Assembly (NCBI GenBank): GCA_943356775.1
Contig: CALRFU010000005.1
Location: 11,671-75,670, forward strand
Direction: 5' to 3'
From: Candidatus Nomurabacteria bacterium
Lineage (GTDB): Bacteria; Patescibacteriota; Minisyncoccia; Phycocordibacterales; UBA2100
DNA length: 64,000 bases
The notes beneath the pieces were generated by a model that saw nothing but the letters and a program-made list of their open reading frames with translations, did no database searches and had not been told where the DNA came from. The translations under genes were made by a program, and so were the position numbers. This document shows, one piece after another, positions 17,952 through 33,518 of this stretch. The number at the start of each line of letters is the position of its first letter. Position 1 is the first letter of the stretch.

Positions 17952-18685
17952 CTTCGGAGGTTAAACCTTCGGAGATTCGTGGTACGCTAGACGGATGGCA
18001 ACACGGGCACCATGCGTGACAGACGAGTGGTATCACTGCTACAACAGGGGTGTCGACAAGCGCAAGGTTTTCGAGTCGAAGGCGGACTATGAACGCTTCA
18101 CCGCCCTCTTATATGTTTCAAACGGGGATAAGACCGAGGCTATTTCCGACAGGTACCGCAGAGATTTGCAGTCGATTCTCGCAGGTGACCCCGCGGAGCG
18201 GGGCAGACCCCTCGTAGACATCGCTGCTTTTTCCTTGATGCCTACCCATGTCCACTTGGTGTTACAACAACTGCAAGACGGCGGGATTGCCCGATTCATG
18301 CAGAAAGTATTTACCGGCTACACGATGCATTTCAATGCGAGGCGGGAGCGAACCGGCGCCTTGTTCGCGGGTACATACAAAGCGAAACACATCGACGACG
18401 ATAGATATCTCAAGAAGGTGATTCCGTACGTTATTTTGAATCCTGCGGAGCTATTTGAACCGAAATGGAAACAAGGAAAATGCGATGTTCGAAAGGTGCG
18501 CGCGCAATTGTTGGAATATCCCTACTCCAGTGTGAAAGAGTTCTTCAGTAAAGACGCAACGGCCCAGAAAATCACTGGCGCAGGTATACGAGAATACTTC
18601 GACCGAATGCCGAATCTGACGGAAATGCTTAGAGACGCGCAGGACTACTACCGTGAGTATTCTCCGGAGGTTTAACCTCCGGAGT
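17952..18685 (+). mobile_element. Compact IS-like element: HUH Y1 transposase gene flanked by 23-bp terminal inverted repeats
   Basis: Left end 17952..17974 is CTTCGGAG-GTTAAAC-CTTCGGAG. Right end 18663..18685 is CTCCGGAG-GTTTAAC-CTCCGGAG, the reverse complement of the left end with 2 mismatches. They enclose the 17995..18675 transposase ORF. Confidence 0.6.
17995..18675 (+). CDS. tnpA: IS200/IS605-family (RAYT-like) HUH tyrosine transposase
   Basis: 226 aa with YHCYNRGVDKRKVF..., the HUH motif MPTHVHLVL, and catalytic-Tyr region FTGYTMHFNARRE...GALFAGTYKAKHI. Confidence 0.7.
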   Translation: MATRAPCVTDEWYHCYNRGVDKRKVFESKADYERFTALLYVSNGDKTEAISDRYRRDLQSILAGDPAERGRPLVDIAAFSLMPTHVHLVLQQLQDGGIARFMQKVFTGYTMHFNARRERTGALFAGTYKAKHIDDDRYLKKVIPYVILNPAELFEPKWKQGKCDVRKVRAQLLEYPYSSVKEFFSKDATAQKITGAGIREYFDRMPNLTEMLRDAQDYYREYSPEV

Positions 18686-20315: not shown

Positions 20316-22535
20316 TTATTTTGCAACACGCTCAGCTTCCTCGAGCTTCACGGAGAGCAACTTTGATACTCCATCTTGTCCCATCGTGACGCCATACAAT
20401 TCCCCTGCTGCGGCCATGGTCGCTCTGTTGTGGGTGATGACTATGAGCTGCGACTTGTTACCGAGCTCCCGTATCATGTCGGCGTAGCGGCGCGAATTAG
20501 CCTCATCAAGCGCCGCGTCGGTCTCGTCGAGAATAAGAAACGGCGGGGGATTCACTTGGCTCATCGAAAAGATAAGTGCGATTGAGGTAAGTGCCCGTTC
20601 GCCGCCCGAGAGCACATCAAGGCCGCGGATTTTCTTGCGCGGAAGCGCGACATCAATAGAAAGCCCCGCATAAAGCCCCTCTTCCTCCGAGACGAAATCT
20701 TCCTCGTCCTCACTTTCAGCGTCGAGATTCTCACGCGCTGTTTTCCGGCGAGGCTCCTCCACTTCGAGCTTTGCGTGCCCGCCGCCGAAGAGCTTCGCGA
20801 AGAAATTCTGCAACGCGACGTTGATGTGCTTGATGCCCTCGGTGAATCGCGCGTCAATCGTCTTTTCCAATTCTGTGATGATGTCCTGAAGTTTCTGCGC
20901 CGAGCTCTCGAGGTCAACGAGCTCACGCGCGAGAAATTCTTCGCGCTCTTTGGTTTGATTGAATTCTTTGACTACCGCATCCCCTCCTCCTATCCCCGAC
21001 TCTTCTATCTTAATCTTGAGCCGCTCAATCTCGCGCCGACGCTTCTCCTGTGCGTGTCGATCCTCTTCGAGCAGCGCGCCCGCGGGTATATCCGCCTTTT
21101 CCCACCCATGCACGGCAGCACCGATAAGCGCGATTCCTTCCCGCACTTCTTCTTCGAAGCGTTGGCGAAGTCCTGCGATATTCGCGCGTGCCGACCGGAC
21201 ACCGCCGAGCTTGCTTTGCGCCACGCGCACGCTCGATTCCAATTCCATTAAATCGCGCTCGGCAGTAAATCCCGCCTCTCGCGCTTCGGCTATTCTTTGG
21301 CGAAGCGTTTCCAATTCCCCCGCAAGAGCCGCCTCCTGTGTGCGCACGCGCTCGAGCGATTTGGCGAGTGCTTCCACTTGCTGCCGGACTTCTTCGTTGG
21401 TCTCAGGTGCTGCACCTGAAAGACCCTCGACGAAGGCTTTGATGCGCTCGCGTATCTGGCCGAGGCGATTCTTGATGATTGAAATATCGTTTTCGCGCTC
21501 GGCTTCGGCAATAGTCTCGGAAAGCGCGCGGGCAAATTGTCGCACATGCGGTACAGGAACGATTTGTTCGACGGTAACGGTATTTGCTTCCAAGGCACCT
21601 TCGGCGCGACCGAGCTCGCGGGTAATCTGCTCGCTTTCACGACGCGCCTCGGAGAGCTTGCCCTCCCGGTCACCAATCTTCGTTTTCAAATCTGCAGTCG
21701 CGCCTTGCCCCGCCGAAGCCCGTACCGCTCGTGCATGCGATACCGATTCCGCAAGCTTCTTCAACTCAGCATCATGCGTCTTCTCGTCATCGCGAAGGCG
21801 GGCGTCCTCCTGGGTAATCCATGCGTTCTCGCGTGCGAGATACTCGTTCAATCTTACCGCGAGCTCGTCTTTCATTTCGCGCGCCTTCTCTATCTTCTCG
21901 ACTTGGACCCGCAAGAAATTGAGATGCGGCGCAAGCTCCCGGCGGAGTGATTTGGTCTTATCGATATTCATACCCGTCTCTTCGAGCTTGCGTTCGGATT
22001 CGACTTTTTTATGTTGGTAGAGCTTAAGACCAAGCGCATCCTCCACCATCTCCCGGCGCTCACGAGGCGACGCATTCAAAATACGATCTGCTTCACCCTG
22101 TGAGATTATCTGGTAGCCGGAGCCGCCGATATTCGCTCCGGCGAGAAGGCGAATCACATCTTTGAGCCGCACGACTGTGCCGTTCAAAAGGTATTCATTT
22201 TGTCCGTCGCGGTACACAACGCGCTCGACGGTGACATCTTTGAAATCGAGGTCGAGGAGACGTTTGGAATTATCAAAAACAACTTTCACGCCCGCGCGAT
22301 TCATACGTGGAAGTGCCGGCGAGCCGCCCCAGATGAGGTCCTCGCCGCGCTTTCCGCGCATCGATTTCATTGACTGCTCGCCAAGCACAAATCGAAAACC
22401 GTCTGCTACATTACTTTTTCCTGATCCATTCGGGCCCACAATAGAAGAAATGCGCGTCCCAAATTCAAGCGTCGTCTTTTTTCCAAACGACTTAAACCCC
22501 GCAAGCTCGATCGACTTGAGATACATGGCCGTCAT
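20316..22535 (-). CDS. smc: Chromosome segregation protein SMC (compact 739-aa form)
   Basis: Walker A GPNGSGKSN; long coiled coil; C-terminal LSGGERALTSIALIFS...LILDETDAALD signature and Walker B. Confidence 0.85.
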   Translation of the reverse strand: MTAMYLKSIELAGFKSFGKKTTLEFGTRISSIVGPNGSGKSNVADGFRFVLGEQSMKSMRGKRGEDLIWGGSPALPRMNRAGVKVVFDNSKRLLDLDFKDVTVERVVYRDGQNEYLLNGTVVRLKDVIRLLAGANIGGSGYQIISQGEADRILNASPRERREMVEDALGLKLYQHKKVESERKLEETGMNIDKTKSLRRELAPHLNFLRVQVEKIEKAREMKDELAVRLNEYLARENAWITQEDARLRDDEKTHDAELKKLAESVSHARAVRASAGQGATADLKTKIGDREGKLSEARRESEQITRELGRAEGALEANTVTVEQIVPVPHVRQFARALSETIAEAERENDISIIKNRLGQIRERIKAFVEGLSGAAPETNEEVRQQVEALAKSLERVRTQEAALAGELETLRQRIAEAREAGFTAERDLMELESSVRVAQSKLGGVRSARANIAGLRQRFEEEVREGIALIGAAVHGWEKADIPAGALLEEDRHAQEKRRREIERLKIKIEESGIGGGDAVVKEFNQTKEREEFLARELVDLESSAQKLQDIITELEKTIDARFTEGIKHINVALQNFFAKLFGGGHAKLEVEEPRRKTARENLDAESEDEEDFVSEEEGLYAGLSIDVALPRKKIRGLDVLSGGERALTSIALIFSMSQVNPPPFLILDETDAALDEANSRRYADMIRELGNKSQLIVITHNRATMAAAGELYGVTMGQDGVSKLLSVKLEEAERVAK

Positions 22536-22926
22536 TGTAACAAGAAAAACCCTTACCGGCAGATTTTACTTCCCTCTCACTCCACTCTTCAGTTCCACCG
22601 GCTTCAAGCGTGCAAGAGAAATAGCGGGGACAACTGCCCCGATATCCTGCCGCAAGATGCCGACGCGCCGAATTCTATCTTGAGTGATGGGCTCGGGCGC
22701 TTCCGGACGGAAGCGGAGCATGGAGTAGTCTTCGGTACGATAGTGCTGCGACATCGTCGCTTCCTAACGTTGTGTGAGCGGCCTTCCGACCGCAGAGCAG
22801 GGGTCTCCTACTTTTTTGTTACGTATTATCTATGTTCTATTTGTCAATAGCCCAGGCGAGGTGATTTGTCCTCAAATAGAGCCAAGTAACCATTGCTTAA
22901 AGGCCAAGGCATATCATAATAGATAA

Positions 22927-24612
22927 ATGAAATTAGACCGCGAAGAAGTCCCTCGTGCAGCAGGTAAAGGAGGTACTCGCGGCGAACTCCCAAAGCCGAT
23001 CCCTGAAATGATAAAGCCGCATAGTGAAGCCGCTCAGCGTGTCCTTGATTTGCGAAACGCCATCCATAAGATCGGATCTAAGGAGCCTCCCGTAAGCCCT
23101 CAAATCATCAAGGGCTTGTTCCCGTACTACATGGGAGAAAAGAAAATCGCCGACACAATTGAGGGTGATCGAATAACCCGCGAAATCGCGATCAATCTAA
23201 GCGAGATTCAAAATTTTCATAGTGAATGGCGTCAATCATGGATGCTGGATCCAAACAACAAAGAAGCTCTGGAGAGGATGACGGCGAATCCATCGCAGAG
23301 TCGAGGGATGATTCCACTCGGGGTTTCTTTTTCCCCAGAAAGCTCCCGCCGACCTGACGATCTTCCAGAAATACCCAGGTCCCTACGCCTAATGCTTCAT
23401 GAAGATGAAAATGTATCGCATCACGTACGTAGAACATTCGTACTGGCTCTCAGTGGAATGAGTTTCAAGAATACTCCTGAGGGAAAACTGTGTCAGGTTT
23501 TTGCAAAACTCTTTAAAGAGCGAAATAGGGCGCAAATCGATGCCCACGACATCCATATGCGTGGCCAATTTGATAATGCAGCACTTGCGCTTCTTTCGTA
23601 TAAGATAATTTATCCCGTGATTCGAGAACAAGAAAATCGCGATGGTTCAACCACTGAGAAAGTCGGATTCGGGATGAATTTGCGTCTTCTTGAACGCCAC
23701 GCTGAAGTCTTTCTTGCACGTGAACGGTATGAGCGTCTCGAGAAAAGGATTTCAAAAGAAACAGACTCTTCCGTTCGTGCGCAATTGGAAAGCGAGCTTC
23801 TCGCACTCTCCGAAAAAAAGCAAGATGCCGACACGTTCATTGCTAATCTAAAAAAGGGCTTTGGCATTAAAGACCCTGGAACAATCTTTGAGACTTTTGG
23901 CGATCGCCTCTATGTGCGAAGCTCAGACTTACCTGTGTTCGACTCTCCCCAACCAGGTGATACAGCGAAAGGTAGAGCAATTTCGTCTCGAAGTCTTGAC
24001 GCAGCGCTTGAAATGCTTACGAAACGCGAAATACCCGATGAGAAGAAATTTGTTTCTCAAGATTTAAATACGCGATCAGCCGAATTTTCACACCGATTAC
24101 ATTTTGCCACAATTACCTTGGGTGAACTGACTGAGTCAGTCTCTCAATTTAAGGAAGGTATCGTAGACGAGGACACCCGATCAGTTGCTCGCAACCTACT
24201 AAAACAAATTATCGATATCTCAGACGACGTTCGTCGCATCCACGATGCATCAAACCGAACTCTTTCCGTTGAGGGTAAAAGTCCCGAAAGTATGGGGACA
24301 CGAAAAGAGAAATTTGAACCGCTATTAAAACTCGCCGGGAGCTTAAGTAGATCATACGAGACAATTCTTGAAGACCTTAAATCGCTCCTGTTTGCAAAAT
24401 CACAAAATAATCAAGAAAGCACGGCGGGTACAAACGAAGGCACCACCGAACTTCAAGCCCAATTAAATGATGCAATAACAGAAATTGCACAAAATCGCGA
24501 ACTTATGCTGCTTGTCTGCGAATATTTAACTTCGGGCACGCCACCACGTGAGATAATCGAATTCATTAACGAGTATTTAGCACAATCTTCCGCGAGCGAA
24601 CCGAGATCATAG
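22927..24612 (+). CDS. Large hypothetical protein (561 aa), first gene of an island operon
   Basis: Soluble, helical, no recognisable motif. Its stop overlaps the start of the next gene (TAGTATG). Confidence 0.55.
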   Translation: MKLDREEVPRAAGKGGTRGELPKPIPEMIKPHSEAAQRVLDLRNAIHKIGSKEPPVSPQIIKGLFPYYMGEKKIADTIEGDRITREIAINLSEIQNFHSEWRQSWMLDPNNKEALERMTANPSQSRGMIPLGVSFSPESSRRPDDLPEIPRSLRLMLHEDENVSHHVRRTFVLALSGMSFKNTPEGKLCQVFAKLFKERNRAQIDAHDIHMRGQFDNAALALLSYKIIYPVIREQENRDGSTTEKVGFGMNLRLLERHAEVFLARERYERLEKRISKETDSSVRAQLESELLALSEKKQDADTFIANLKKGFGIKDPGTIFETFGDRLYVRSSDLPVFDSPQPGDTAKGRAISSRSLDAALEMLTKREIPDEKKFVSQDLNTRSAEFSHRLHFATITLGELTESVSQFKEGIVDEDTRSVARNLLKQIIDISDDVRRIHDASNRTLSVEGKSPESMGTRKEKFEPLLKLAGSLSRSYETILEDLKSLLFAKSQNNQESTAGTNEGTTELQAQLNDAITEIAQNRELMLLVCEYLTSGTPPREIIEFINEYLAQSSASEPRS

Positions 24613-24613
24613 T

Positions 24614-25624
24614 ATGGCAAACGGCGATAGAATTGCAGGAAGAAATATTGTACTCGAAGCAATGAAAGCCCGCCTTGCTGAAAAAGCAGCACGCAAACAA
24701 GGCGTTCCTACCCCAGAAGCAGCGGACAAACCTGCTTCACCTCAAGCCCCTGAATCGTCAATTCCCACTACACCGCGAGAGTCTGGTCGCACAGTTGCAA
24801 CCCTTGAAAATGCAATGCGCGACACCGCCGACAAAGCACGTTTCGGTAAAGAGCTTGTCGAGGCTTGCGCAAGCTTGAAAGAGAAGATTGACACCCAAGT
24901 CGTCACACTGATGAATATGATGAACAAGGCGCTCGACATTGGTACTGATGGGCGCGCATACACTCACGATACTGCGAATGATTCTATCGTCGCCAACATT
25001 ACTAACCCTGATCTCATTAGTAGTTTCCGTGCAACTGAAGAAGTCACACGAGAACTAGAAGCCGTCGTCCGTGAAATGCCTGTCGAGATTGAAAAACTCT
25101 TTCATGTACTCGATGAATCCCATGGAAAATTCATATCGATAATTACCGGTGAGAAACACGAGGTGCAGAAACGCAGCTTTGATCCCCTACCTTCAATTGA
25201 TACTCTTCCGGAACGCACTTTGCCTACTCGAACACCAAAATCTATAGAGGCTTCGCTACAAACAGCTCTCGGAGAAAGTGCCAACAGGGCTGTGTTCCTG
25301 CAAGCACTTGTCGAAGCTTCGAAAAGACTCAAGGAGAAGATTGATGTGCGTGTGGTTACCCTTCTATCCATGATGAACAAGGCGCTCACTCAAGGCGTCG
25401 ATGATATTGCGTATACATTCGACCCTGGAAATAATCGCATGATGGCTGTCCCACAAGTAGACCTCGTCATAGGGTTCACTACTACCGAAAATGTCGCTCG
25501 CGAACTTGAGGGGGCTGTAATTGACATGCCGCGCGAGATTCAATTATTGATAGAGGAACTCCTGAAAGCAGACGAAGAATTTAAAGAACTCATTGCGCAA
25601 GGATTAGCAGCAGGATCAAATTGA
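24614..25624 (+). CDS. Hypothetical protein (336 aa) with an internal roughly 100-aa tandem domain duplication
   Basis: Two related segments (ARFGKELVEACASLKEKIDTQVVTLMNMMNKAL... and AVFLQALVEASKRLKEKIDVRVVTLLSMMNKAL...). Translationally coupled to its neighbours. Confidence 0.55.
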   Translation: MANGDRIAGRNIVLEAMKARLAEKAARKQGVPTPEAADKPASPQAPESSIPTTPRESGRTVATLENAMRDTADKARFGKELVEACASLKEKIDTQVVTLMNMMNKALDIGTDGRAYTHDTANDSIVANITNPDLISSFRATEEVTRELEAVVREMPVEIEKLFHVLDESHGKFISIITGEKHEVQKRSFDPLPSIDTLPERTLPTRTPKSIEASLQTALGESANRAVFLQALVEASKRLKEKIDVRVVTLLSMMNKALTQGVDDIAYTFDPGNNRMMAVPQVDLVIGFTTTENVARELEGAVIDMPREIQLLIEELLKADEEFKELIAQGLAAGSN

Positions 25625-25630
25625 TACAAT

Positions 25631-25684
25631 ATATGCCAGAATCATTTCTCAGTAAAAATATGCCAGAATCATTTCTCAGTAAAA
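25631..25684 (+). repeat. Perfect 27-nt x2 tandem duplication, in-frame (MPESFLSKN/MPESFLSKK)
   Basis: atatgccagaatcatttctcagtaaaa occurs twice consecutively at the 5' end of the giant gene. Confidence 0.9.
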
Positions 25685-28600
25685 AGAGGGCGGGACGTGG
25701 AGGAGGGCCGACGCTCGGTTCGTACTCGGGCTCTAAGGTAACCGTCGAGCACCAATTACCGACTCCGACTGGTATAGAGTCCAAAGTCAGCGAAGAAGTA
25801 CGCATGGCGATCGAGAAAATCAAGGCAAACGCCGTCAATGAAATGGTCACGCAAATGAAAAGCGTCGGCCTCGATATTGACGATGCTAGCGTTCGGGCGG
25901 CAGTCAATCAATATGAAAAAGATCCTAGTGTGAGGGATGGTGCAATCAATGCGATTCGAGACATGATGAAGGGCCTTAAAGGAAAGGGTCCGGATGAGAT
26001 TGCAGAAACTCTCGCAAACGATGCACAAGCCGTTTTCACTGCAGCAAAAAATAATACGGAAATTCCACTCAATAACGTTCTTATTCCCCTTCTCATATCA
26101 CAGGGGGAGCTAGAACAAACCGAGCTCGATGAAGCTGCTCGAATGAAACTCAGGGGCGTAAAGTTGAGCACGCGACGACTTAAGACGGGCCCTGTTTCTG
26201 CTGCTAAAGGCGTAGTCGGGCGACTCGCAGTCCCCTCAGCGGTACTGCTACACACAACCCTTGCAGTCGTCGACACAGCTGTCATTGAGAAAGCAGCTTC
26301 AGGCGTACTCTCGGACTGGGCCGTAGAAGGTGCCACTAAAGAGGCTCTCGCATGGGGCTTCTCGGGCGCCGGCAACGTTCTTCTCGTCAAACAAAAACTC
26401 AGTGTACGAGGTGAATGGATTCGCGGAACGGCGGATTTTTTCTGGAGCGACACAAACAAAGGCCGAGTATATGGTGCACTCGCGGCATCATTTCTTGCAC
26501 TTGCGACACCGGCAATTCTCGGCCAGGTGAAGCGCGGTACAGTTGATACAGCTGTTTCGGGGGAAGTTGGCCCGAAAATGGGAGCTCGTTACAAGCCAGA
26601 AATTGACAGCATTCAAGAGACAATCAGACTCGCACAAGGGCTCTTTGGGTCTATACAACCATCAATCGACGATAAAATGCGAACAGCTTTCAAAGATGGA
26701 GGAATCGGATGGGGCCGCAGGACGTGGAGCATTAATCGTGTTTTATACGGCAAGAACGCAGAAAGCGACCGCAACTACGAGGCATTCAGGGCGGATCCAA
26801 ATGCATCTGCGACATTTCGAGGAAAACCCATGGCAGAGTTTGCAAGAGGAGTTGTACCGCCTGCAGAATCGCAGCGCCAGTCCGCAACTGCATCGGCCGA
26901 TCTTACACAGGCACGAAAAGAATTGGAAACGCTGAGAAAAACGCCCTCGACCAAGAACGAGACAGGCCAAGCAAAACAAAAAGCCGCTATTAAAGCTGCT
27001 GAACTTAAAGTACGAAATGCTCAGGGCGCTACCAATGCGCCACGTGGCGCAATTCCGGAGGCCAAGTCCACGCCCGGAGCGGGTGCCGGCCCTGATCCCG
27101 ACGCTGTCCAAAAAGCTATGCTATCGCTTAATCAACGCTACGGCCTCAATCCAACTGATGGAGCAGAACAGTATCTGAAGAAACTTACCGATGAAATTGA
27201 AAAAATAAATCCAGAGCAGGTATTCAAAATACTTGATTCACTTCTCAAAGAGAGTGAAATACTTTCAAAATCAGGCATCATCGGAAATATTTTTGGCGTG
27301 CTTGCACCCGTGCCAACAATCATGGGGACTATCGGTTCGAACGTTTGGCGTGGAGAAGGAGCGAGTTCATTCACGAAAAATGTCCCTTGGGAGGATATGT
27401 TCCATAGCTCATCAGGGGTGCGCGCAATGTTCAAAACTGAAGAAAAATATCTTGCACGTCGCAATGAGATGGTAAAAAGTCTAAAGATGATCATGGTTAG
27501 TACGCAATTCGAGAAATACCTCACTGATGTAGCCAAGGAAACGGGAGTCGACACAAAGATGGTGATCCCATCAACAACGTTCACAATCGCAGATGACGCC
27601 ACTGGTATAGATCGCACGCCCTACAAAGTAATGGTTGATAAGACCGTTTTAGATTATGCCTTACCTCTCATGCCGCCTAACGACAGTCCGGAATGGGGGT
27701 ACATCGACACAAGTTTCAAAAATTCAGGAATCACATGGATCGATGTAAAGACTGATGCTGGGAAATATCAGGCAATGGGTCTGCTCGTCGGATTCGTACT
27801 CTTAATTCTTGCTGGAAGTGTCTGGTATACGATCGGCATGAAAAAACTGAGTAAACGATGGGGCATTGACAATGCTTTGCGCGATGATGAGAAGCGAGGG
27901 TTGTTTGCAGTTGAATCGAAAATTGTGAATGACATGGTCAAGCTCGTGCGCGATCGTGAAAAGACGCTCATGGGAGCAATTGCAAAAAGCGGAAGTAGTT
28001 CCCAATTACCGCAACGTGACGAACTAGCACTTGGCGCGGTCTTGCAACGACGCCTGCGCGAAGAAGTCCTTTCGAAGATGCAACAGCCGCTCGATAAAAC
28101 ACCTGAAGGTATCGCGTTTATCAATCGCGAAAACTCCCTCGGTAGTCGTGCACTGCGTATGGAATATGCTGCAAAACTCAACGAATACATCGAGGGCTAC
28201 AAAAATGACCGCAGCGGGGCCGTTGTCACAATTCTCGATGATATCGATGCGGGTAGATATGAGGAGATCAGGGCGCTTCAGGCATTCGTACAACAGAGTC
28301 AGCCCATCGCAACAACAGAACTCGCCGCGAAGAACATTGCCGCGTGGTGGGAACGCATTGATGTCAAGTTCGTTAATGAAGAAGTTGAAGCTCGTAAAGC
28401 TGACATACAAAACCTCTATGCTGAGCGCGAGGCCGTTGTAAATCTTCGCGCGCCGATGCAAATTCTTCTCACCGACAGCGTGGCACCAGGCAGCATCACG
28501 CCCGCTGATATTTTGTATACATCGCGACTGACGGAACTTGATAGTCTTATCGCCACTCAACACGAGGCGATTAAGCAAATCACGAACGGCGCTGTCGATG

Positions 28601-29430
28601 GTCCTATACAACGCGATACTAAGGTAGTCTTTTCGAATGAACAGATAGAGGAGCTTCGCGACGACCTTCAAAACGAAGAACTCAACAACACCCTCGACGG
28701 TAGTGATATTACATCGGTCGCTAAAGAATATAGCGCACTCGCTCAAAGCCTCGGAAAACGCGTCCGCTCTCTTGAGAACTTCGTCACAGCAGCATTCGGC
28801 GACGAAACTGCGGGTGGTCGAATCTCATTTGAATACGCATATCGTCCCGACGTTTTCGGACCCACTATTGTTATCAATCTACAGCGAGCAGACGGAGAGA
28901 CTCTTACCGTACCGCTGCAACAAACGGTACCGAATCGACTCCTTGCCACAGATGAATCGATAATCCAAGCTATGGCCCAGTGGCTACGGCCTGATAGTAA
29001 AGAGATGAGACTAATGCGATTGTACGCTGTCCATGATTCGTATAAAGCAGCTGCTGATGCCGTCAAAAAAGAAATACTTGGTGACGCCTCGAGCGGTCTC
29101 GTTGATGTAGTTAGTTTCGATGATGAGAAATTTGCGGGCGTGCAAGAGTTACTCGAACGTAGCGATGTCATACGCATCCAAAGGCAATTACTGGAACAGA
29201 TCAAGGCTTCTGGTGAACCACTTAATCAAGTACAACAGCGGGTTTTCGAGGAGCCAGATAAAGTGGCTCTCGGAGGTATGTGGAAAAAAGATATCCGAAC
29301 GGTTTTAAAAGCGGCTACCGATCTCAACCCGGACTCAACAGTGCAATACGACGTCGGTACTGAGGAGGTCGTTATCAAGAATACATTGGGAGAACGCAGG
29401 GTGAACGTGCGTAACGTGCCAAGTACCTAA
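25633..29430 (+). CDS. Giant hypothetical membrane protein (about 1265 aa) with coiled coils and a central TM segment
   Basis: ATG at 25633 (the ORF track starts at TTG 25621). Strong TM helix YQAMGLLVGFVLLILAGSVWYTIGM near residue 720 plus 2-3 weaker hydrophobic segments. No recognisable domain. The first 18 aa carry an in-frame tandem duplication. Confidence 0.55.
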   Translation: MPESFLSKNMPESFLSKKRAGRGGGPTLGSYSGSKVTVEHQLPTPTGIESKVSEEVRMAIEKIKANAVNEMVTQMKSVGLDIDDASVRAAVNQYEKDPSVRDGAINAIRDMMKGLKGKGPDEIAETLANDAQAVFTAAKNNTEIPLNNVLIPLLISQGELEQTELDEAARMKLRGVKLSTRRLKTGPVSAAKGVVGRLAVPSAVLLHTTLAVVDTAVIEKAASGVLSDWAVEGATKEALAWGFSGAGNVLLVKQKLSVRGEWIRGTADFFWSDTNKGRVYGALAASFLALATPAILGQVKRGTVDTAVSGEVGPKMGARYKPEIDSIQETIRLAQGLFGSIQPSIDDKMRTAFKDGGIGWGRRTWSINRVLYGKNAESDRNYEAFRADPNASATFRGKPMAEFARGVVPPAESQRQSATASADLTQARKELETLRKTPSTKNETGQAKQKAAIKAAELKVRNAQGATNAPRGAIPEAKSTPGAGAGPDPDAVQKAMLSLNQRYGLNPTDGAEQYLKKLTDEIEKINPEQVFKILDSLLKESEILSKSGIIGNIFGVLAPVPTIMGTIGSNVWRGEGASSFTKNVPWEDMFHSSSGVRAMFKTEEKYLARRNEMVKSLKMIMVSTQFEKYLTDVAKETGVDTKMVIPSTTFTIADDATGIDRTPYKVMVDKTVLDYALPLMPPNDSPEWGYIDTSFKNSGITWIDVKTDAGKYQAMGLLVGFVLLILAGSVWYTIGMKKLSKRWGIDNALRDDEKRGLFAVESKIVNDMVKLVRDREKTLMGAIAKSGSSSQLPQRDELALGAVLQRRLREEVLSKMQQPLDKTPEGIAFINRENSLGSRALRMEYAAKLNEYIEGYKNDRSGAVVTILDDIDAGRYEEIRALQAFVQQSQPIATTELAAKNIAAWWERIDVKFVNEEVEARKADIQNLYAEREAVVNLRAPMQILLTDSVAPGSITPADILYTSRLTELDSLIATQHEAIKQITNGAVDGPIQRDTKVVFSNEQIEELRDDLQNEELNNTLDGSDITSVAKEYSALAQSLGKRVRSLENFVTAAFGDETAGGRISFEYAYRPDVFGPTIVINLQRADGETLTVPLQQTVPNRLLATDESIIQAMAQWLRPDSKEMRLMRLYAVHDSYKAAADAVKKEILGDASSGLVDVVSFDDEKFAGVQELLERSDVIRIQRQLLEQIKASGEPLNQVQQRVFEEPDKVALGGMWKKDIRTVLKAATDLNPDSTVQYDVGTEEVVIKNTLGERRVNVRNVPST

Positions 29431-29473
29431 AAGCAAAAGTCCCCTTGTATTTTCGTATGGGGACTTGGCTTAG

Positions 29474-29655
29474 TTAAAAGATCCTCTTGGCTATGAAATG
29501 CAGGAATGCTCCCAGCATACAGGCTGAGAGCGCGATCGTGATGACAACGGCCAATTTCCGTATATGTGGCACACCTGCGTACTCGAGCGTAAATGTAACC
29601 ACCCAAACTATCAGCACAACCACGAACATGACTGAAAGCGCTTTTCGATTTGTCA
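29474..29655 (-). CDS. Small two-TM membrane protein (60 aa)
   Basis: AAGGAG 8 nt upstream of the ATG. MTNRKALSVMFVVVLIVWVVTFTLEYAGVPHIRKLAVVITIALSACMLGAFLHFIAKRIF. Confidence 0.55.
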
Positions 29656-29742
29656 TGAGACATCTCCTTGCATTTCCATGAAGAGTTAGCCCGCTGCCGA
29701 GTACATTACCATGAACATGCGCTTGGGCAACTTTGGGATGCT

Positions 29743-29835
29743 CTACCACCCCTTCGCAATGAGCGCCTTTTGAGCGGCGTCTTGTTCTGCTTCTTGTTTG
29801 GAGTGACCCTCGCCGAGGGCGATCTTTCGCGAGCG
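29743..29835 (-). pseudogene. Relic copy of the rnc 3' end (last roughly 27 codons plus stop)
   Basis: Minus-strand translation ...KIALGEGHSKQEAEQDAAQKALIAKGW* matches the C-terminus of rnc at 30481..30570 (...KLAIGEGRSKQEAEQDAAQKALIAKGW*) with about 75% nucleotide identity. It is not part of a long ORF. Confidence 0.7.
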
Positions 29836-29895
29836 ATGTAGGCGACGACAAACACCTCGTGATCGGGTTTGAAGCGGGGATCGGGATAGCTCGAG

Positions 29896-30159
29896 CTATT
29901 CGTACAATTCACTATGTGTGCCAATACGGATAAATATACAAGCATCACCGTCGGTGAAATATAGTGCGCGGTAATCTCCCGTGATGTTGATACTTCTGCA
30001 ACCGCCATACTCTCCACTGAGTGAGTGATTCTTCAGCAGCGGATTAAGTGGGTTCGTTTCGAACAACAGCTTACGCTCGACGAACTTGCTACGTATACTC
30101 AAGTCGAGTTTTTTTATATTCTTCAGAAACGATGGGCGCAGGACGATTTTCATGCCCAA
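29896..30159 (-). CDS. relE: Type II toxin, RelE/ParE (YafQ-like) family
   Basis: 87 aa ending LSGEYGGCRSINITGDYRALYF...IFIRIGTHSELYE, the RelE/ParE core. Confidence 0.75.
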   Translation of the reverse strand: MGMKIVLRPSFLKNIKKLDLSIRSKFVERKLLFETNPLNPLLKNHSLSGEYGGCRSINITGDYRALYFTDGDACIFIRIGTHSELYE

Positions 30160-30432
30160 TTAGAGCGACAAGAGATATTCGTCCATCTCTTTCGCGTTTT
30201 TAAAAGCGATCATGTTTTTGCCCGACTTTATATCCCGCATAGCTTCCTTGATCGCCTTCCGTGTTTCGGCATTTGGGATTTCCGGCCGTTCAAACACAAC
30301 GCGCTGATCAGTAACAAAATCCTTCAAGTATCGATTGATTATCGTCCCGAGTGGAAGACCAAGGTCACGTGCCACCTCTTGGGCCTTCTTTTTAAGTTTG
30401 GCGTCCGTTTTGACCGAAAGCATGGTCTTCAT
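30160..30432 (-). CDS. relB: Type II antitoxin, RelB/DinJ family
   Basis: MKTMLSVKTDAKLKKKAQEVARDLGLPLGTIINRYLKDFV..., a DinJ-like RHH N-terminus. Immediately upstream of and abutting the toxin gene. A TTGACG-N-TATATA promoter-like sequence lies at about 30440..30475. Confidence 0.7.
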   Translation of the reverse strand: MKTMLSVKTDAKLKKKAQEVARDLGLPLGTIINRYLKDFVTDQRVVFERPEIPNAETRKAIKEAMRDIKSGKNMIAFKNAKEMDEYLLSL

Positions 30433-30480
30433 ATATCCAAAGTATATACAAAGGATATTACGCGTCAAGCGTGCATAGTA

Positions 30481-31170
30481 TCACCACCCCTTGGCGATGA
30501 GGGCCTTTTGCGCTGCGTCCTGCTCCGCCTCTTGTTTGGACCGGCCTTCGCCTATCGCCAGCTTCTCGGTCCCTATAAACGCGCCGATGAGAAATACTTT
30601 GTCGTGGTCAGGTCCGGTCTGACTCATCACCTGATAGGTGGGCGTGATGCCGTTTTTTTCCTGGGCCACTTCCTGCAACTTGCTTTTGGCGTCCTGCCAG
30701 AGCCTGTTGGCAACGACGTCGTCGGTCTTATGAAAAAGCTGGTCTGCAATGAATTTTTTCGCCGTCTCATACCCTGAATCGAGATACAAAGCACCGATGA
30801 GTGCCTCAAACGCATTCGCAAGGATTATCAATCGCGCACGGCCCACGTCTTTCGATTCCCCCTTCGAGAGCATGAGGTATTCATTTATCCCAAGCTTCGT
30901 CCCCGCATCCGCGATACTCTGCGTATTCACGAGAGCCGCACGAAATGCGGTTAATTCTCCTTCCGGCTTCTCGGGATATTTTGCGTACAAAAATTCGGTG
31001 ACGACGAGTTCCAAGACAGCATCTCCGAGAAATTCGAGGCGCTCGTTGTGCTCACGGCCGGCAGCCCGGTTCTCGTTGAGATACGAACGATGCGTAAAAG
31101 CCGTCTCGAGCAGACGCTTATCGTTGAATGAGTATCCGAGCTTAGTCTCGAAGGCCGCGAGTTCCGCCAT
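30481..31170 (-). CDS. rnc: Ribonuclease III
   Basis: RNase III signature ERLEFLGDAVLELVVTEFLY and a C-terminal dsRBD. Confidence 0.93.
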   Translation of the reverse strand: MAELAAFETKLGYSFNDKRLLETAFTHRSYLNENRAAGREHNERLEFLGDAVLELVVTEFLYAKYPEKPEGELTAFRAALVNTQSIADAGTKLGINEYLMLSKGESKDVGRARLIILANAFEALIGALYLDSGYETAKKFIADQLFHKTDDVVANRLWQDAKSKLQEVAQEKNGITPTYQVMSQTGPDHDKVFLIGAFIGTEKLAIGEGRSKQEAEQDAAQKALIAKGW

Positions 31171-31172
31171 AG

Positions 31173-32126
31173 CTACTTTTTCTTACGCGGACGGGAAGGA
31201 GCCGCAGGCGTGTCGGGCTTTTCTTTTTGCGCGAGCACGTTGATGGCGGGGACAATTATTTTCAAAGTATCGTCGTACAGGTTCAAATCACCGACGGCGG
31301 AGAGTGGAAACCATTGCGCATCGTCGAGACCTCCGCTGCTTCCGAGTCTGATTTCTGAGAAAGGAGATTCGGCGAGGAAGTAGCTCACGCGCTTGCGCTT
31401 CTTGCCGCCTTCGACTTTTGAGTCATTGGCCACATATTCGTTGACGCCGAGTTCTTGGACAATTTTAATATCAAGCCCCATCTCTTCTTTTATTTCGCGA
31501 ATCGCACCAGTCTGCACGTCTTCACCTTCTTCTATCTTGCCTTTTGAGAGCGTCCAGTGACCGAAGATATCGTGGACAAATGCGAGATACGTCTCCCCTT
31601 CTGAACGTGCAAAAACGACAGCACCCGCCAAATGCTCTGTCGGCATTTTTACCGGCTTTTGTCCGACGTCTTTGCGGACGCCGCCCTCATTTTTGCCTGG
31701 CTCGCCAAGCTCGACGTACACAGCACCCAAGACGCCGTTTACGAATCGCCCCGAGGATTCACTGCCGAAAGATTTCGCAAGCTCTATTGCTTCATTGATA
31801 GCGACTTTTGCTGGCACTTGTGTGCGGTCCGAAAAGAGAAGCTCGGTGAGCCCGAGGCGCAGGACGTTGCGGTCGATTGCCGCGATGCGGTCTATCGGCC
31901 ACTCCGGTGCGGCACGCACAATGACTTCGTCTATTTCTTTTTGTTTGGCGACCGCAGTAGAAAGGAGTTCTTTCATGAACGGCATGTCAGAGTCGCGTGC
32001 GCCGAATTCTTTACCGTAATCGAGAAGCCGGGAGACTGCTTCGTCGCTTGTCATCTTGCCCTCCGAAGAGTCGCGCTCAAAGAGCACTTGGAGAACGACT
32101 GAACGAGCAAGGTGTCTATTTGCCAT
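31173..32126 (-). CDS. nusB: NusB-like antitermination domain fused to a C-terminal NUDIX hydrolase domain
   Basis: N-terminus has NusB motifs (ARSVVLQVLFERD...RIAAIDRNVLRLGLTELLF...VAINEAIELAKSFGSESSGRFVNGVLGAV). C-terminus has the Nudix box GKIEEGEDVQTGAIREIKEEMGL. Confidence 0.75.
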   Translation of the reverse strand: MANRHLARSVVLQVLFERDSSEGKMTSDEAVSRLLDYGKEFGARDSDMPFMKELLSTAVAKQKEIDEVIVRAAPEWPIDRIAAIDRNVLRLGLTELLFSDRTQVPAKVAINEAIELAKSFGSESSGRFVNGVLGAVYVELGEPGKNEGGVRKDVGQKPVKMPTEHLAGAVVFARSEGETYLAFVHDIFGHWTLSKGKIEEGEDVQTGAIREIKEEMGLDIKIVQELGVNEYVANDSKVEGGKKRKRVSYFLAESPFSEIRLGSSGGLDDAQWFPLSAVGDLNLYDDTLKIIVPAINVLAQKEKPDTPAAPSRPRKKK

Positions 32127-32268
32127 AATACAAGAGCTGCTTCACAAAGAAGTATACCCCATGAGATACCGACTTCAATTGCGCAAGGTGTTGATTAATA
32201 GATTGTGAGGATCGGCGTCGGATACAAAAATAAAAAACATCTCACGGGGCGAGCACAAAAAGGCGGGC

Positions 32269-32544
32269 TTAGACGGCCTGCGTGGTCTCTTTTTCTTTCG
32301 TCTCTTCGGATTGTCCGCTCGCGCGCAATTCGGTCTGCTTGCGCTTCTGGCGACGCGCGGTGCGCTTAGCGGCCGCGACAATATCGATAACTACTTTACC
32401 GTTGTACTTGCCGCACTCCGGACATGCGCGGTGAGACATGCGGGAAGCGCCACACTCGCATTTTGTGAGGCGTTGACCGGAAATAGCGTGATTGCTGCGC
32501 CGTTTTGCGGTCTGGGAACGATTCTTACGCATTCGTACTACCAT
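32269..32544 (-). CDS. rpmF: 50S ribosomal protein L32 with a C-terminal extension
   Basis: MRKNRSQTAKRRSNHAISGQRLTKCECGASRMSHRACPECGKYNGKVV matches the L32 zinc ribbon. The exact start is uncertain (MVVRM or MRKN). Confidence 0.8.
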   Translation of the reverse strand: MVVRMRKNRSQTAKRRSNHAISGQRLTKCECGASRMSHRACPECGKYNGKVVIDIVAAAKRTARRQKRKQTELRASGQSEETKEKETTQAV

Positions 32545-32555
32545 ATGTGGGAGGA

Positions 32556-33158
32556 TTATACAGACTTTGAGCCAACGTGCAATCTCGAACAGAATGTTGC
32601 GCGGTGTATCTCAGAGAGTCCGCAGCGGGCTATGACCGACAGGTGGGAGGCGGTGCCGTACCCTTTATGGACATGGAAATCGTATGCTGGGTACTTCGGC
32701 GAGAGCCGCTTCATCATTCTGTCCCGTGTGACCTTGGCCATAACGGATGCGAGTGAAATAGCGGGCTCGGTGTCGTCTCCACGGATAATTGTCTCCTGAT
32801 AGATGTACTCTTCCGGCGCCTTGAGGCTGCCGTCCAGCAGCACGCGACAGTCCGCGGGCGCAACTTCGAAGCGGGAAAGTGCTTCGGCGAGTGCGCGCTT
32901 GATGGCAGGCACGATTCCGTACGTATCAATATATGCGGCTGAGGACGTTGATACCGAGAAGCGGAGTGCGGACGTTTTTTCGAGCTCCCGCGTACGCTCA
33001 AATATTTCTTCGCGCACTTTTTCTGAAAGTTTCTTGGAGTCCCGGACGCCTTCTACGAGGCTCCAATCAAAATCTACCGGTACCAAGACCGCGCCGACAG
33101 AAACAGGCCCCGCGAGTGGTCCGCGCCCCGCTTCGTCAATACCTATGAGGTAATTCAT
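32556..33158 (-). CDS. rnhB: Ribonuclease HII
   Basis: GIDEAGRGPLAGPV...DSKKLS...LLDGS..., the RNase HII catalytic motifs. Confidence 0.9.
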   Translation of the reverse strand: MNYLIGIDEAGRGPLAGPVSVGAVLVPVDFDWSLVEGVRDSKKLSEKVREEIFERTRELEKTSALRFSVSTSSAAYIDTYGIVPAIKRALAEALSRFEVAPADCRVLLDGSLKAPEEYIYQETIIRGDDTEPAISLASVMAKVTRDRMMKRLSPKYPAYDFHVHKGYGTASHLSVIARCGLSEIHRATFCSRLHVGSKSV

Positions 33159-33518
33159 TTGTAAATCATAGCAAGAGAAGAGGCCACACGTGGGTGGCCT
33201 CTTCGGTAGCGACGTTTCAGACGTCAGTCAGATTGTGGATTGTCCTCCGGAGCGGATGGCCGTGTCGGCCCCGGGTATGGTCCCATTCGTGCAACCTCTT
33301 CACGTTCGCAGGCGGCCGCCGTTCTGGCCGATGCCTCATCCGCTAAAATGCCTTCTTCAAACTTTTTGCCCTTTGTCCGCCGCGACATTCGAAGTACTCC
33401 ATCGGATTCCGGCTCCGACTTTGTTGTTTGCGCATTATGCGCTTGGTAGCCAGACCGCACTGTAATTTGCAAAGAGCGTGTGGTCAATGTGGAAAACTCT
33501 CGATGATATACTCGACGT

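What the first reader, a model, noticed from the sequence alone, without database searches (positions are those of the whole stretch)
22560..30480. Roughly 7.9-kb AT-richer island inserted between rnc and smc, carrying a tightly coupled three-gene operon of large unrecognisable proteins
In many bacteria rnc and smc are adjacent. Here they are separated by an island that reads as compositionally AT-richer than the flanking housekeeping DNA; this was judged by eye and not counted. Its core is three translationally coupled plus-strand genes whose stop and start codons overlap. Gene A (561 aa) is soluble and helical. Gene B (336 aa) is built from two homologous roughly 100-aa modules. Gene C (about 1265 aa) has long coiled-coil-like regions, one strong central TM helix and 2-3 weaker hydrophobic segments. 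None shows a motif I can assign. The island also carries a small two-TM protein and a RelBE module. This is the best candidate in the window for an undescribed, horizontally acquired system, possibly membrane-associated or defence- or conjugation-related. Function cannot be inferred from sequence alone.
Basis: partly seen in the sequence, partly recalled or inferred. Interest (0 to 1): 0.72.

Follow-up and report, generated by a model that had tools for sequence, protein, structure and literature searches.

The report
Swappable mystery operon in Kaiserbacteria
Between two housekeeping genes of an uncultured Kaiserbacteria (CPR) bacterium lies a four-gene membrane-protein operon with no known relatives, which near-identical strains carry in a very different version (21% protein identity) or have lost, so it looks like an unknown strain-variable system and not a recent foreign insertion.

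Summary
Between smc (20316-22535, -) and rnc (30481-31170, -) lies a 7.9-kb stretch at 47.9% GC, against 53.6% elsewhere. It carries genes A (561 aa), B (336 aa, internally duplicated) and C (about 1256 aa, membrane protein), a convergent 60-aa two-TM gene, and RelBE. A, B and C match nothing in Pfam, NCBIfam, PADLOC, PHROGs or the PDB. C has only 18 cluster representatives among 1.84 billion proteins.

It is not a recent insertion. Every related Kaiserbacteria/Paceibacterota contig recovered has A-B-C plus a small TM gene next to rnc, and smc lies on the other side wherever that flank was captured. The locus is strongly polymorphic. Conspecific contigs with 97-99% identical flanks carry a version in which window 24701-29744 is unalignable (C 21%, B 29% identity). 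A third haplotype replaces A, B and most of C with an IS integrase. Two further lineage pairs show the same type switch. Gene A, together with B's N-terminal tail, assorts independently of the B-core/C/TM cassette. Within a type, selection is purifying (dN/dS 0.06-0.12).

Best reading: a dispensable membrane module with two exchangeable cassettes, kept polymorphic by frequency-dependent selection. I favour a conflict or defence role (about 0.35). The function is inferred, not shown.

The parts
20316..22535 (-). smc (short, 739 aa); conserved left flank of the locus
   Evidence: Pfam SMC_N 3.7e-65 and TIGR02168 6e-160. 99-100% identical in conspecific L009.
22536..22926 (.). Divergent intergenic region between smc and gene A, presumed to hold the operon promoter
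   Evidence: 50.1% GC. No convincing sigma-70 match. Retained up to 22893 in the deletion haplotype L024.
22927..24612 (+). Gene A, 561 aa, soluble and helical; variable 'head' module (type a)
24614..25624 (+). Gene B, 336 aa: N-terminal tail (about 1-58) followed by two homologous modules of about 115 aa
   Evidence: Internal repeat 46% identity, E = 2e-30. The tail co-varies with the A type, while the core co-varies with the C type.
25660..29430 (+). Gene C, 1256 aa (alternative starts at 25621 and 25633), membrane protein with large helical domains
   Evidence: P0001, 1256 aa. Family-wide conserved hydrophobic segments at about 279 and about 715, the latter always followed by 3-6 (mostly 4-5) K/R. 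Only 18 cluster representatives among 1.84e9 proteins. No Pfam, PADLOC or PDB hit for 16 diverse members.
29437..29466 (.). 8-bp stem hairpin between the convergent C and small-TM genes (possible bidirectional terminator)
   Evidence: Read directly from the sequence. Not picked up by the consensus scan.
29474..29656 (-). Small 60-aa two-TM protein, a conserved partner of C
   Evidence: tblastn 82% to L001. Two hydrophobic helices. A small multi-TM ORF follows C in every locus examined for it, and its type changes with the C type.
24701..29744 (.). Replaceable cassette 2 (B core + C + small TM): unalignable between conspecific haplotypes
   Evidence: blastn of window against L009/L010 gives 97-99% identity on both sides and no hit inside. 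The left break is sharp at 24700. The right break falls at the rnc 3' remnant.
22894..29150 (.). Segment missing in the conspecific deletion haplotype (A, B and C except its last 93 codons), replaced there by about 1.09 kb carrying an rve integrase
   Evidence: L024 against window. The rve/rve_3 domains are in a 442-aa ORF fused to the C remnant. The L028 and L030 contigs break at the same junction.
29745..29826 (-). Remnant copy of the rnc 3' end; right-hand homology arm of the cassette swap and left repeat bracketing RelBE
   Evidence: 82-nt direct repeat with 30483-30564, 78% identity. Ten substitutions at 29773-29809 relative to L009.
29896..30468 (-). RelE/YafQ toxin (29896-30159) and RelB antitoxin (30160-30468); an independent small insertion
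   Evidence: Pfam YafQ_toxin 1.3e-10 and RelB 1.2e-5; TIGR02385 8e-11. Absent in L001, L007 and L008.
30481..31170 (-). rnc (RNase III); conserved right flank
   Evidence: Pfam Ribonucleas_3_3 5e-39 plus dsrm.

Best explanation
Shown, with about 0.85-0.9 confidence. This is a four-gene module restricted to a Kaiserbacteria/Paceibacterota subclade. It comprises soluble helical A, internally duplicated B, the roughly 1250-aa membrane protein C, and a small multi-TM protein. It occupies a fixed chromosomal site next to rnc, between rnc and smc where that flank was captured. It consists of two independently exchangeable units: [A + the N-terminal tail of B] and [B core + C + small TM]. Deeply diverged versions of each unit are swapped between lineages and between conspecific strains by homologous recombination. 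One crossover zone lies at the A 3' end and B 5' end, the other in the rnc 3' end. Within a type the genes are under purifying selection. The whole operon can also be lost, through an IS-associated deletion, so it is dispensable and polymorphic in nature.

Inferred, with about 0.35 confidence. This pattern fits negative frequency-dependent selection on a conflict system. I favour an anti-phage, abortive-infection-like module. In that model A is the exchangeable cytoplasmic sensor or specificity subunit. B is an adaptor whose tail docks A and whose duplicated core docks C. C with its small TM partner is the membrane-embedded effector or gate. The roles of the parts are inference from anatomy and population genetics. 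No step of the mechanism is demonstrated. The single confidence value given (0.35) refers to the functional reading, the weakest link of the statement.
For: No known family.

Tiny family: 18 representatives among 1.84e9 proteins, 3 GTDB species, 6 metagenome loci.

Fixed synteny in all loci recovered.

Conspecific allele swap: flanks 97-99% nt identical, window 24701-29744 unalignable, C 21% and B 29% identity, small TM protein unrelated.

Bimodal relation between rnc and C identity, with three independent type switches: rnc 100/87/83% against C 21-23%. Same-type pairs show rnc 76-87% against C 75-79%.

A types assort independently of C types, and B's tail follows A.

Purifying selection within a type (L005 against L008): C 0.06, B 0.07, A 0.12. 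dS in the operon (0.45-0.89) exceeds dS in smc (0.23), which indicates deeper coalescence or imports. A between the window and L009: dN/dS 0.37 against 0.06 or less in the flanks.

Null haplotype with an rve integrase in three assemblies.

The neighbourhood collects TA-type and other small cassettes: RelBE here, HepT/MNT in L006, Fic in L007, PaaX_M/Cas2-like genes in L007 and L008.

The operon is AT-richer than its flanks in the three relatives where composition was measured (L009, L001, L008).
Against: No homology to any of the 5027 PADLOC models, for the window proteins or for 16 diverse C members. No nuclease, ATPase, protease or other enzymatic domain is detectable.

Known defence systems are usually patchy, with unrelated systems alternating at a hotspot. 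Here the same family always occupies the site, which looks more like a lineage-core function.

The loci were found through A, B or C themselves, apart from the rnc-based look-up within one species. 'Always present' is therefore ascertainment-biased.

The topology of C is unresolved. A region of about 415 aa between the two robust TM segments, containing a Pro/Ala/Lys-rich linker, could be extracellular, which would favour a surface or host-contact role.

The AF2 model of C is unusable (pLDDT 41.8).
Confidence: 0.35

Rival explanations
1. Host-recognition or attachment complex of an episymbiont. C spans the membrane with an exposed domain of about 415 aa between its two robust TM segments, and it couples contact with the host cell to cytoplasmic partners A and B. 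The allelic types would then correspond to different host strains or to escape from host defences.
For: CPR bacteria are largely obligate epibionts (PMC12102498, introduction). Two family-wide TM segments flank a region that holds a Pro/Ala/Lys-rich low-complexity linker (W residues about 396-480), which is typical of wall-spanning segments. The module sits at a fixed site in all relatives recovered, with ancient allelic classes, as seen at surface-antigen loci.
Against: A, B and C have no signal peptide. Divergence between types and within types is uniform along C, with no hypervariable exposed loop. The most variable component, A, is predicted to be soluble and cytoplasmic. The operon can be deleted in wild strains, which is unexpected if it were needed for obligate attachment.
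Confidence: 0.25
2. Bacteriocin-like or contact-dependent antagonism module. C (with A and B) would be a membrane-active toxin or delivery protein, and the small co-varying multi-TM protein would be its cognate immunity protein, giving strain-specific toxin/immunity types.
For: A small multi-TM ORF lies directly downstream of C in every locus examined for it. It is usually convergent, and it changes type together with C: 60 aa with 2 TM, 95 aa with 3 TM, 131 aa with 3 TM, 67 aa with 2 TM. This mirrors the opposite-strand immunity genes of pore-forming colicins (own knowledge). The locus is multi-allelic and includes null alleles.
Against: No toxin, colicin, Rhs, CDI or secretion-associated domain is detected. 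There is no secretion signal and no dedicated secretion ATPase. The deletion haplotype keeps the small TM gene but also keeps only one type, so orphan immunity arrays, a hallmark of such systems, are not seen.
Confidence: 0.12
3. Lineage-specific housekeeping envelope, division or chromosome-membrane apparatus that simply evolves fast. It sits next to smc by ancestry.
For: The operon has a fixed position next to smc, rnc and nusB in all relatives recovered. Within a type, C diverges at about the rate of rnc and smc and is under strong purifying selection.
Against: Conspecific strains with 97-99% identical flanks carry versions only 21% identical. An IS-associated deletion removes A, B and most of C in three assemblies. 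The A types are mutually unalignable. Other genes can intervene between smc and A.
Confidence: 0.1
4. One reading: a recently acquired mobile genomic island, possibly conjugation-related, inserted between the adjacent genes rnc and smc in this genome.
For: Low GC relative to the flanks. A RelBE module and a duplicated rnc 3' end are present.
Against: The same gene set sits next to rnc in every related contig recovered, with smc on the other side where that flank was captured. The window island contains no integrase, relaxase, VirB4 or T4CP. Viral contig scans find no homologues. The only repeat brackets RelBE alone.
Confidence: 0.03

Closest known systems
S-layer cassette switching in Clostridioides difficile (slpA-secA2-cwp cassette types exchanged by homologous recombination; own knowledge, not tested here)
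   Same: A multi-gene cassette at a fixed chromosomal site. The flanks are near-identical and the interior is very divergent between strains of one species. There are several ancient types, and exchange proceeds through flanking homology.
   Different: Those proteins are secreted, with signal peptides and cell-wall-binding domains, and belong to known families. Here nothing has a signal peptide or a known domain, two sub-cassettes assort independently, and a null allele exists.
Staphylococcus agr specificity groups and pneumococcal comCD pherotypes (own knowledge)
   Same: The hypervariable segment has breakpoints inside genes, so interacting parts co-vary while the ends of the genes stay conserved. 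Here the first 28 codons of B are conserved and the remainder is replaced.
   Different: agr and com are quorum-sensing systems with a histidine kinase and a peptide, and they span about 1 kb. Here the replaced segment is about 5 kb, no kinase or peptide-processing domain is present, and the identities are far lower (21%).
Anti-phage defence hotspots and modular sensor/effector immune systems (for example CBASS and Avs; membrane-acting RexAB, Kiwa, Zorya; own knowledge plus the PADLOC scan)
   Same: The content is strain-variable and dispensable and lies between core genes. TA cassettes are neighbours. A putative sensor and a membrane component shuffle independently. An IS-mediated null allele exists.
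   Different: No sequence match to any PADLOC model. The same family always occupies the site, in place of unrelated systems alternating. No enzymatic effector domain is present.
Pore-forming colicin operons with an opposite-strand small TM immunity gene (own knowledge)
   Same: A large helical protein is followed by a convergent small multi-TM gene that co-varies with it.
   Different: There is no colicin pore-forming, translocation or receptor domain and no lysis gene. The hydrophobic segments of C are internal and not C-terminal. C itself looks like a resident membrane protein.
Mycoplasma P1/MgPa adhesin operons (own knowledge)
   Same: A three-gene operon of very large lineage-specific proteins in a reduced-genome, host-dependent bacterium, varied by recombination.
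   Different: Mycoplasma variation uses intragenomic repeat donors (MgPar/RepMP) and surface-exposed adhesins with signal sequences. Here the variation is inter-strain allele replacement, and no internal donor repeats were found.

Membership tests
Known anti-phage defence systems (PADLOC-DB v2) | Significant match of at least one component to a defence-system HMM | tested here: not met
   Window A, B and C: best hit Cas2 at E = 0.09. Of 16 diverse C members, one spurious hit at E = 0.0067.
Defence system (generic, functional definition) | Variable presence or absence among close relatives, and co-location with other defence or TA genes | tested here: inconclusive
   A null haplotype and allele swaps occur within one species. 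TA cassettes lie adjacent. However, the same family occupies the site in all relatives recovered.
Defence system (generic, functional definition) | Protection against phage infection | not testable with these tools
   Requires experiments. The organism is uncultured.
Type IV secretion / conjugation machinery of Patescibacteria | VirB4 ATPase with TrsD, VirB3/PrgI, VirB6 and a T4CP or relaxase nearby (PMC12102498) | tested here: not met
   No ATPase, VirB or relaxase domain in any island ORF. No Walker motif was noticed on reading the A, B and C translations, though this was not searched formally.
Integrative mobile genomic island | An integrase or recombinase, flanking att-type direct repeats around the whole island, and an empty site in relatives | tested here: not met
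   No integrase in 22536-30480. The only long direct repeat brackets RelBE alone. The site is occupied in all relatives recovered.
Cassette-type polymorphic locus (allelic replacement at a fixed site) | Near-identical flanks, an unalignable interior encoding homologous but highly diverged proteins, and recurrence in more than one lineage | tested here: met
   Flanks 97-99% identical, interior without a blastn hit, C 21% identical over 1194 aa. Three independent switches.
Type II toxin-antitoxin RelBE/YafQ-DinJ (for the 29896-30468 pair only) | Adjacent small genes that match RelE/YafQ toxin and RelB antitoxin models above the curated cut-offs | tested here: met
   YafQ_toxin 41.9 bits (cut-off 30). 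RelB 25.6 bits (cut-off 22.4). TIGR02385 42.2 bits (cut-off 27.9).
Secreted surface, S-layer or adhesin proteins | An N-terminal signal peptide, or a lipobox or sortase signal | tested here: not met
   No N-terminal hydrophobic segment in A, B or C by Kyte-Doolittle scan. No dedicated signal-peptide predictor was available.
Pore-forming colicin/bacteriocin with immunity protein | A C-terminal pore-forming (colicin) domain in the large protein | tested here: not met
   No Pfam hit in any of the 16 C members. The hydrophobic segments are internal.
Pore-forming colicin/bacteriocin with immunity protein | A small multi-TM gene immediately downstream, usually on the opposite strand, that co-varies with the toxin type | tested here: met
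   a small 2-3 TM ORF follows C in W, L001, L004-L009, L013, L019 and L021, and its type changes with the C type.

The most novel reading that the evidence does not exclude
A previously undescribed, Kaiserbacteria-restricted membrane-anchored immune or self/host-recognition system built from entirely new protein families. An exchangeable cytoplasmic specificity module (A + B tail) and an exchangeable membrane module (B core + C + small TM) are maintained as ancient, trans-species allelic classes by frequency-dependent selection in ultra-small episymbiotic bacteria.
Probability: 0.35. Interest if true: 0.8.

Novelty: new variant of a known kind. Interest (0 to 1): 0.66.

Why it matters
CPR/Patescibacteria have genomes of about 1 Mb, and most of their lineage-specific proteins are uncharacterised. 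A 7-kb operon is close to 1% of such a genome. This one is retained at a single site across species and kept under purifying selection. It is nevertheless swapped for versions only 21% identical, or deleted, among co-occurring strains. That makes it a strong candidate for the interface between these cells and their phages, hosts or competitors.

The locus gives a concrete, trackable marker for strain-resolved metagenomics of Kaiserbacteria: three haplotypes with sharp junctions. It also offers four new protein families, with a clear modular logic, as targets for structural and heterologous-expression work. If it proves to be an immune system, it would be one that is invisible to current defence-finder tools.

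Tried and rejected
1. Library scans. Pfam, NCBIfam, PADLOC and PHROGs on the window's A, B and C gave nothing usable. Pfam on the other A types, on type-2 B and C, and on the 1414-aa protein of L006 gave nothing. Pfam and PADLOC on 16 diverse C members, and Pfam on 6 members of A type a, gave nothing.

2. Profile searches of PDB sequences with the A, B and C alignments returned only E > 0.02 coiled-coil noise.

4. hhalign of A against B, B against C, and A type a against the other A types found no relationship. The idea that A's C-terminus contains a B-like module, suggested by a weak BLAST hint at E = 0.28, was dropped.

5. Viral contig scans for C and A found nothing, so there is no prophage or phage origin.

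6. I looked for a hypervariable exposed loop in C and found none. Identity is uniform along the protein.

7. The promoter and terminator consensus scan showed no enrichment over shuffles.

8. I first thought the longer SMC in L004 meant that the window's SMC had lost its hinge. The extra length is an intein.

9. The first representative-library jobs failed on length limits and on disallowed sequences. The search succeeded with A4.

10. The literature searches I ran found no description of this locus.

Full report
**1. What is there**

ORF listing and domain scans place a short smc (739 aa) at 20316-22535 on the minus strand, and rnc at 30481-31170, also on the minus strand. rnc is followed by a nusB-NUDIX fusion (31173-32126), rnhB, and dnaE on the plus strand (33519-36686).

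Between smc and rnc, on the plus strand, lie three genes:
- Gene A, 22927-24612, 561 aa.
- Gene B, 24614-25624, 336 aa.
- Gene C, ending at 29430. Public gene calls start it at ATG 25660, giving 1256 aa. TTG 25621 and ATG 25633 are alternative starts, because a 27-nt tandem duplication repeats the first codons.

A 60-aa protein with two TM helices is encoded convergently at 29474-29656. An 8-bp hairpin separates it from C. The RelE/YafQ and RelB genes occupy 29896-30468.

The region 22536-30480 is 47.9% GC against 53.6% for the rest of the window. It is the lowest of all same-size windows, about six standard deviations below the non-overlapping ones.

B is an internal duplication: residues 62-175 against 205-336 give 46% identity, E = 2e-30.

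The A stop and the B start are 1 nt apart and do not overlap. The B/C overlap depends on the choice of start codon.

**2. No known family**

A, B and C give no significant or consistent hit in Pfam, NCBIfam, PADLOC or PHROGs, only isolated sub-threshold matches. Profiles of each protein against all PDB sequences give nothing.

Word-indexed searches of 5.8 billion proteins found only 4, 6 and 8 relatives of C, A and B respectively. One source name identifies the lineage as Candidatus Kaiserbacteria (P0012). An exhaustive HMMER search of 1.84 billion cluster representatives with a C profile found only 18 proteins. Most of them are 20-25% identical to each other. Sixteen diverse C members were also blank in Pfam and PADLOC.

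**3. It is not an insertion peculiar to this genome**

Contigs carrying relatives of A, B or C all show the same order wherever the flanks were captured: (trmD-KH-rpsP)-smc, then A-B-C on the opposite strand, then a small TM gene, then rnc-nusB/NUDIX-rpmF-rnhB-dnaE. This holds for L001, L004-L010, L013, L015, L016 and L021. In L013 a 1057-aa ORF without any Pfam hit, and not smc, was seen on the left flank.

In relatives of the same C type, C diverges at about the rate of the housekeeping flanks. Window against L001 gives C 76%, rnc 78%, smc 70%. Window against L004 gives C 55%, rnc 63%.

The operon is AT-richer than its flanks in the three relatives checked as well: L001 52-57% against 60-62%, L008 52-54% against 55-58%, and L009 46% against 54-56%.

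RelBE is absent in L001, L007 and L008. In the window it is bracketed by an 82-nt direct repeat of the rnc 3' end. It is a separate small insertion. In L006 a HepT/MNT pair sits at the same spot next to a 36-aa dsrm fragment.

One caveat applies. Apart from the rnc look-up below, all loci were found through A, B or C themselves. I cannot say what fraction of Kaiserbacteria lack the operon. The scan of GTDB species representatives found it in only three species.

**4. The locus is strongly polymorphic**

L009 and L010 are MAGs GCA_943355125.1 and GCA_943358355.1. They are 97-99% identical in DNA to window 20320-24700 and 29743-34729. Their smc, rnc and nusB proteins are 99-100% identical to the window's.

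Window 24701-29744 has no nucleotide match to the corresponding 5.1 kb of L009. The encoded proteins are homologous but remote. B is 29% identical. C is 21% identical over 1194 residues. The small TM protein is a 95-aa three-TM protein with no detectable similarity.

The left break is sharp, after codon 29 of B, so the first 28 residues of B are identical. It is preceded by about 700 nt of declining identity in the 3' part of A. The right break lies in the rnc 3' remnant, where 10 substitutions cluster at 29773-29809. These features fit homologous recombination with arms at the A 3' end/B 5' end and in the rnc 3' end.

Looking up the exact rnc protein, which is unbiased with respect to the operon, returned 22 contigs of this species in three haplotypes:
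- The window type: L022 (99.995% identical), L023 and L029.
- Type 2: L025-L027 and L031.
- A deletion type. In L024, window 22894-29150 (A, B and all but the last 93 codons of C) is replaced by about 1.09 kb. That segment encodes an rve-family integrase fused in frame to the C remnant. Contigs L028 and L030, from two other assemblies, end at the same junction.

The accession series suggest that the three haplotypes come from the same sampling projects.

**5. The polymorphism is old and recurrent**

Plotting rnc identity against C identity for all locus pairs gives two clouds. Pairs with rnc at 76-87% have C at either 75-79% or 19-24%. Type switches appear in three independent backgrounds: window/L009 (rnc 100%), L004/L019 (rnc 87%) and L007/L021 (rnc 83%). 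Conversely, L009 and L019 share a C type (48%) although their rnc is only 61% identical.

Within a type the genes are under purifying selection. For L005 against L008, dN/dS is 0.06 for C, 0.07 for B and 0.12 for A. Their dS values (0.45-0.89) exceed that of the adjacent smc (0.23). This points to deeper coalescence or repeated imports, and not just to faster protein evolution.

**6. Two exchangeable units**

Gene A comes in at least four mutually unalignable types:
- Type a: window, L006, L007, L009, L016, and weakly L013.
- Type b: L001.
- Type c: L004, with an extra 265-aa coiled-coil gene.
- Type d: L005 and L008.

These were established.

A types combine freely with C types. Type a is found with C type 1 (window), with type 2 (L009) and with the 1414-aa protein of L006. 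C type 1 is found with A types a, b, c and d. The N-terminal tail of B follows the A type, while B's duplicated core follows the C type.

I infer that B is an adaptor whose tail contacts A and whose core contacts C. The selectable units would then be [A + B tail] and [B core + C + small TM]. Between the window and L009, A is 91% identical with dN/dS 0.37, against 0.06 or less in the flanks. That fits either mosaic imports or adaptation of A to a new partner.

**7. Anatomy of C and its partner**

Across 16 diverse members, two hydrophobic segments are always present, at window residues about 279 and about 715. The second is always followed by 3-6 Lys/Arg, mostly 4-5, which argues for a cytoplasmic C-terminal domain of about 530 aa. 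A third segment (about 195-215) is frequent. A fourth (about 549) occurs only in a subset of type 1.

Either C has four TM segments with small external loops, or it has two TM segments that bracket an external region of about 415 aa. That region includes a Pro/Ala/Lys-rich linker (residues about 396-480). I could not resolve this. Identity is uniform along the protein, with no hypervariable loop.

A small ORF with 2-3 TM helices follows C in every locus examined for it. It is usually convergent, and its type changes with the C type.

**8. Interpretation**

The descriptive conclusion is well supported, at about 0.85-0.9. This is a lineage-restricted, dispensable, two-cassette polymorphic locus at a fixed site, exchanged by homologous recombination.

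Several features are what negative frequency-dependent selection produces at conflict loci: ancient allelic classes, independent shuffling of a soluble component and a membrane component, a null allele caused by an IS, TA and other small cassettes collecting alongside, and a persistently lower GC. I therefore favour an immune, abortive-infection-like module at about 0.35. In that model A is the specificity subunit, B the adaptor, and C plus the small TM protein the membrane effector.

The main rivals are:
- An episymbiont host-contact complex (0.25).
- A toxin/immunity antagonism module, suggested by the co-varying small TM gene (0.12).
- A fast-evolving housekeeping envelope apparatus (0.10). 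The deletion haplotype and the 21% alleles in conspecifics count against it.
Synteny and the absence of any integrase, VirB4, T4CP or relaxase contradict it. Those components define the patescibacterial T4SS according to PMC12102498.

**9. Comparison with known systems**

In behaviour the locus resembles cassette-type polymorphic loci, such as the C. difficile S-layer cassette and the agr specificity groups with breakpoints inside genes. This comparison rests on my own knowledge and was not tested here. The defining features of such a locus were tested and met.

Membership of any named defence, secretion, bacteriocin or surface-protein family was tested and not met. The literature searches I ran returned nothing on this locus.

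I rate it a new variant of a known kind. The population-genetic phenomenon is familiar, but the gene content consists of four families with no known relatives. The most novel reading that the evidence does not exclude is a new immune or recognition system specific to these ultra-small bacteria, at a probability of about 0.35.

Noticed in passing
window 20316-22535; L004 3-2951: The SMC of this clade is unusually short (737-743 aa). It shows only an SMC_N match, and no SMC_hinge family appeared in the Pfam output. In L004 the smc gene is interrupted near its P-loop by an intein that carries a NYN nuclease domain (Intein_splicing, PT-HINT, NYN).
   Followed up: partly
window 31173-32126: NusB is fused to a C-terminal NUDIX hydrolase domain (317 aa). 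The fusion is conserved in all related loci.
   Followed up: no
window 29745-29826 and 30483-30564; L006 6398-7228: The RelBE pair is bracketed by an 82-nt direct repeat of the rnc 3' end (78% identical). In L006 a HepT/MNT pair occupies the same spot beside a 36-aa dsrm gene fragment. This suggests that small TA cassettes insert at the rnc 3' end and duplicate it.
   Followed up: partly
window 25628-25681: A 27-nt tandem duplication (96% identical) at the start of gene C repeats the peptide MPESFLSK and creates two in-frame ATG starts, at 25633 and 25660.
   Followed up: no
window 17995-18675 and 16974-17906: A low-GC patch (46% at 17-18 kb) holds an IS200-like Y1 transposase ORF (Pfam Y1_Tnp, E = 4e-5) and a 310-aa ORF without any family hit. 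A Y1_Tnp gene is also present in L001.
   Followed up: no
window 46470-47045: A second low-GC patch (46% at 46-47 kb) encodes a 191-aa protein with a PaaX_M (Cas2-like) domain. PaaX_M genes also sit near the variable locus in L007 and L008.
   Followed up: no
L007 4814-8090; L013 305-4344; L016 271-957: In some relatives, extra genes of unknown function lie on the minus strand between smc and gene A: a conserved protein of about 230 aa, a 709-aa or 1057-aa protein, and a DUF5663 protein. The site therefore accumulates further lineage-specific genes.
   Followed up: no
L006 1725-5969: In L006, gene A (type a, 46%) is followed directly by a 1414-aa protein. It has a similar arrangement of hydrophobic segments but no BLAST similarity to any C type, and there is no separate B gene. 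It may be a B-C fusion or a third, still more remote cassette type.
   Followed up: partly
L020 437-898; L021 1333-1764: In the most divergent loci, the gene in the B position is only 143-153 aa, about the length of one module. It no longer matches the B profile.
   Followed up: partly
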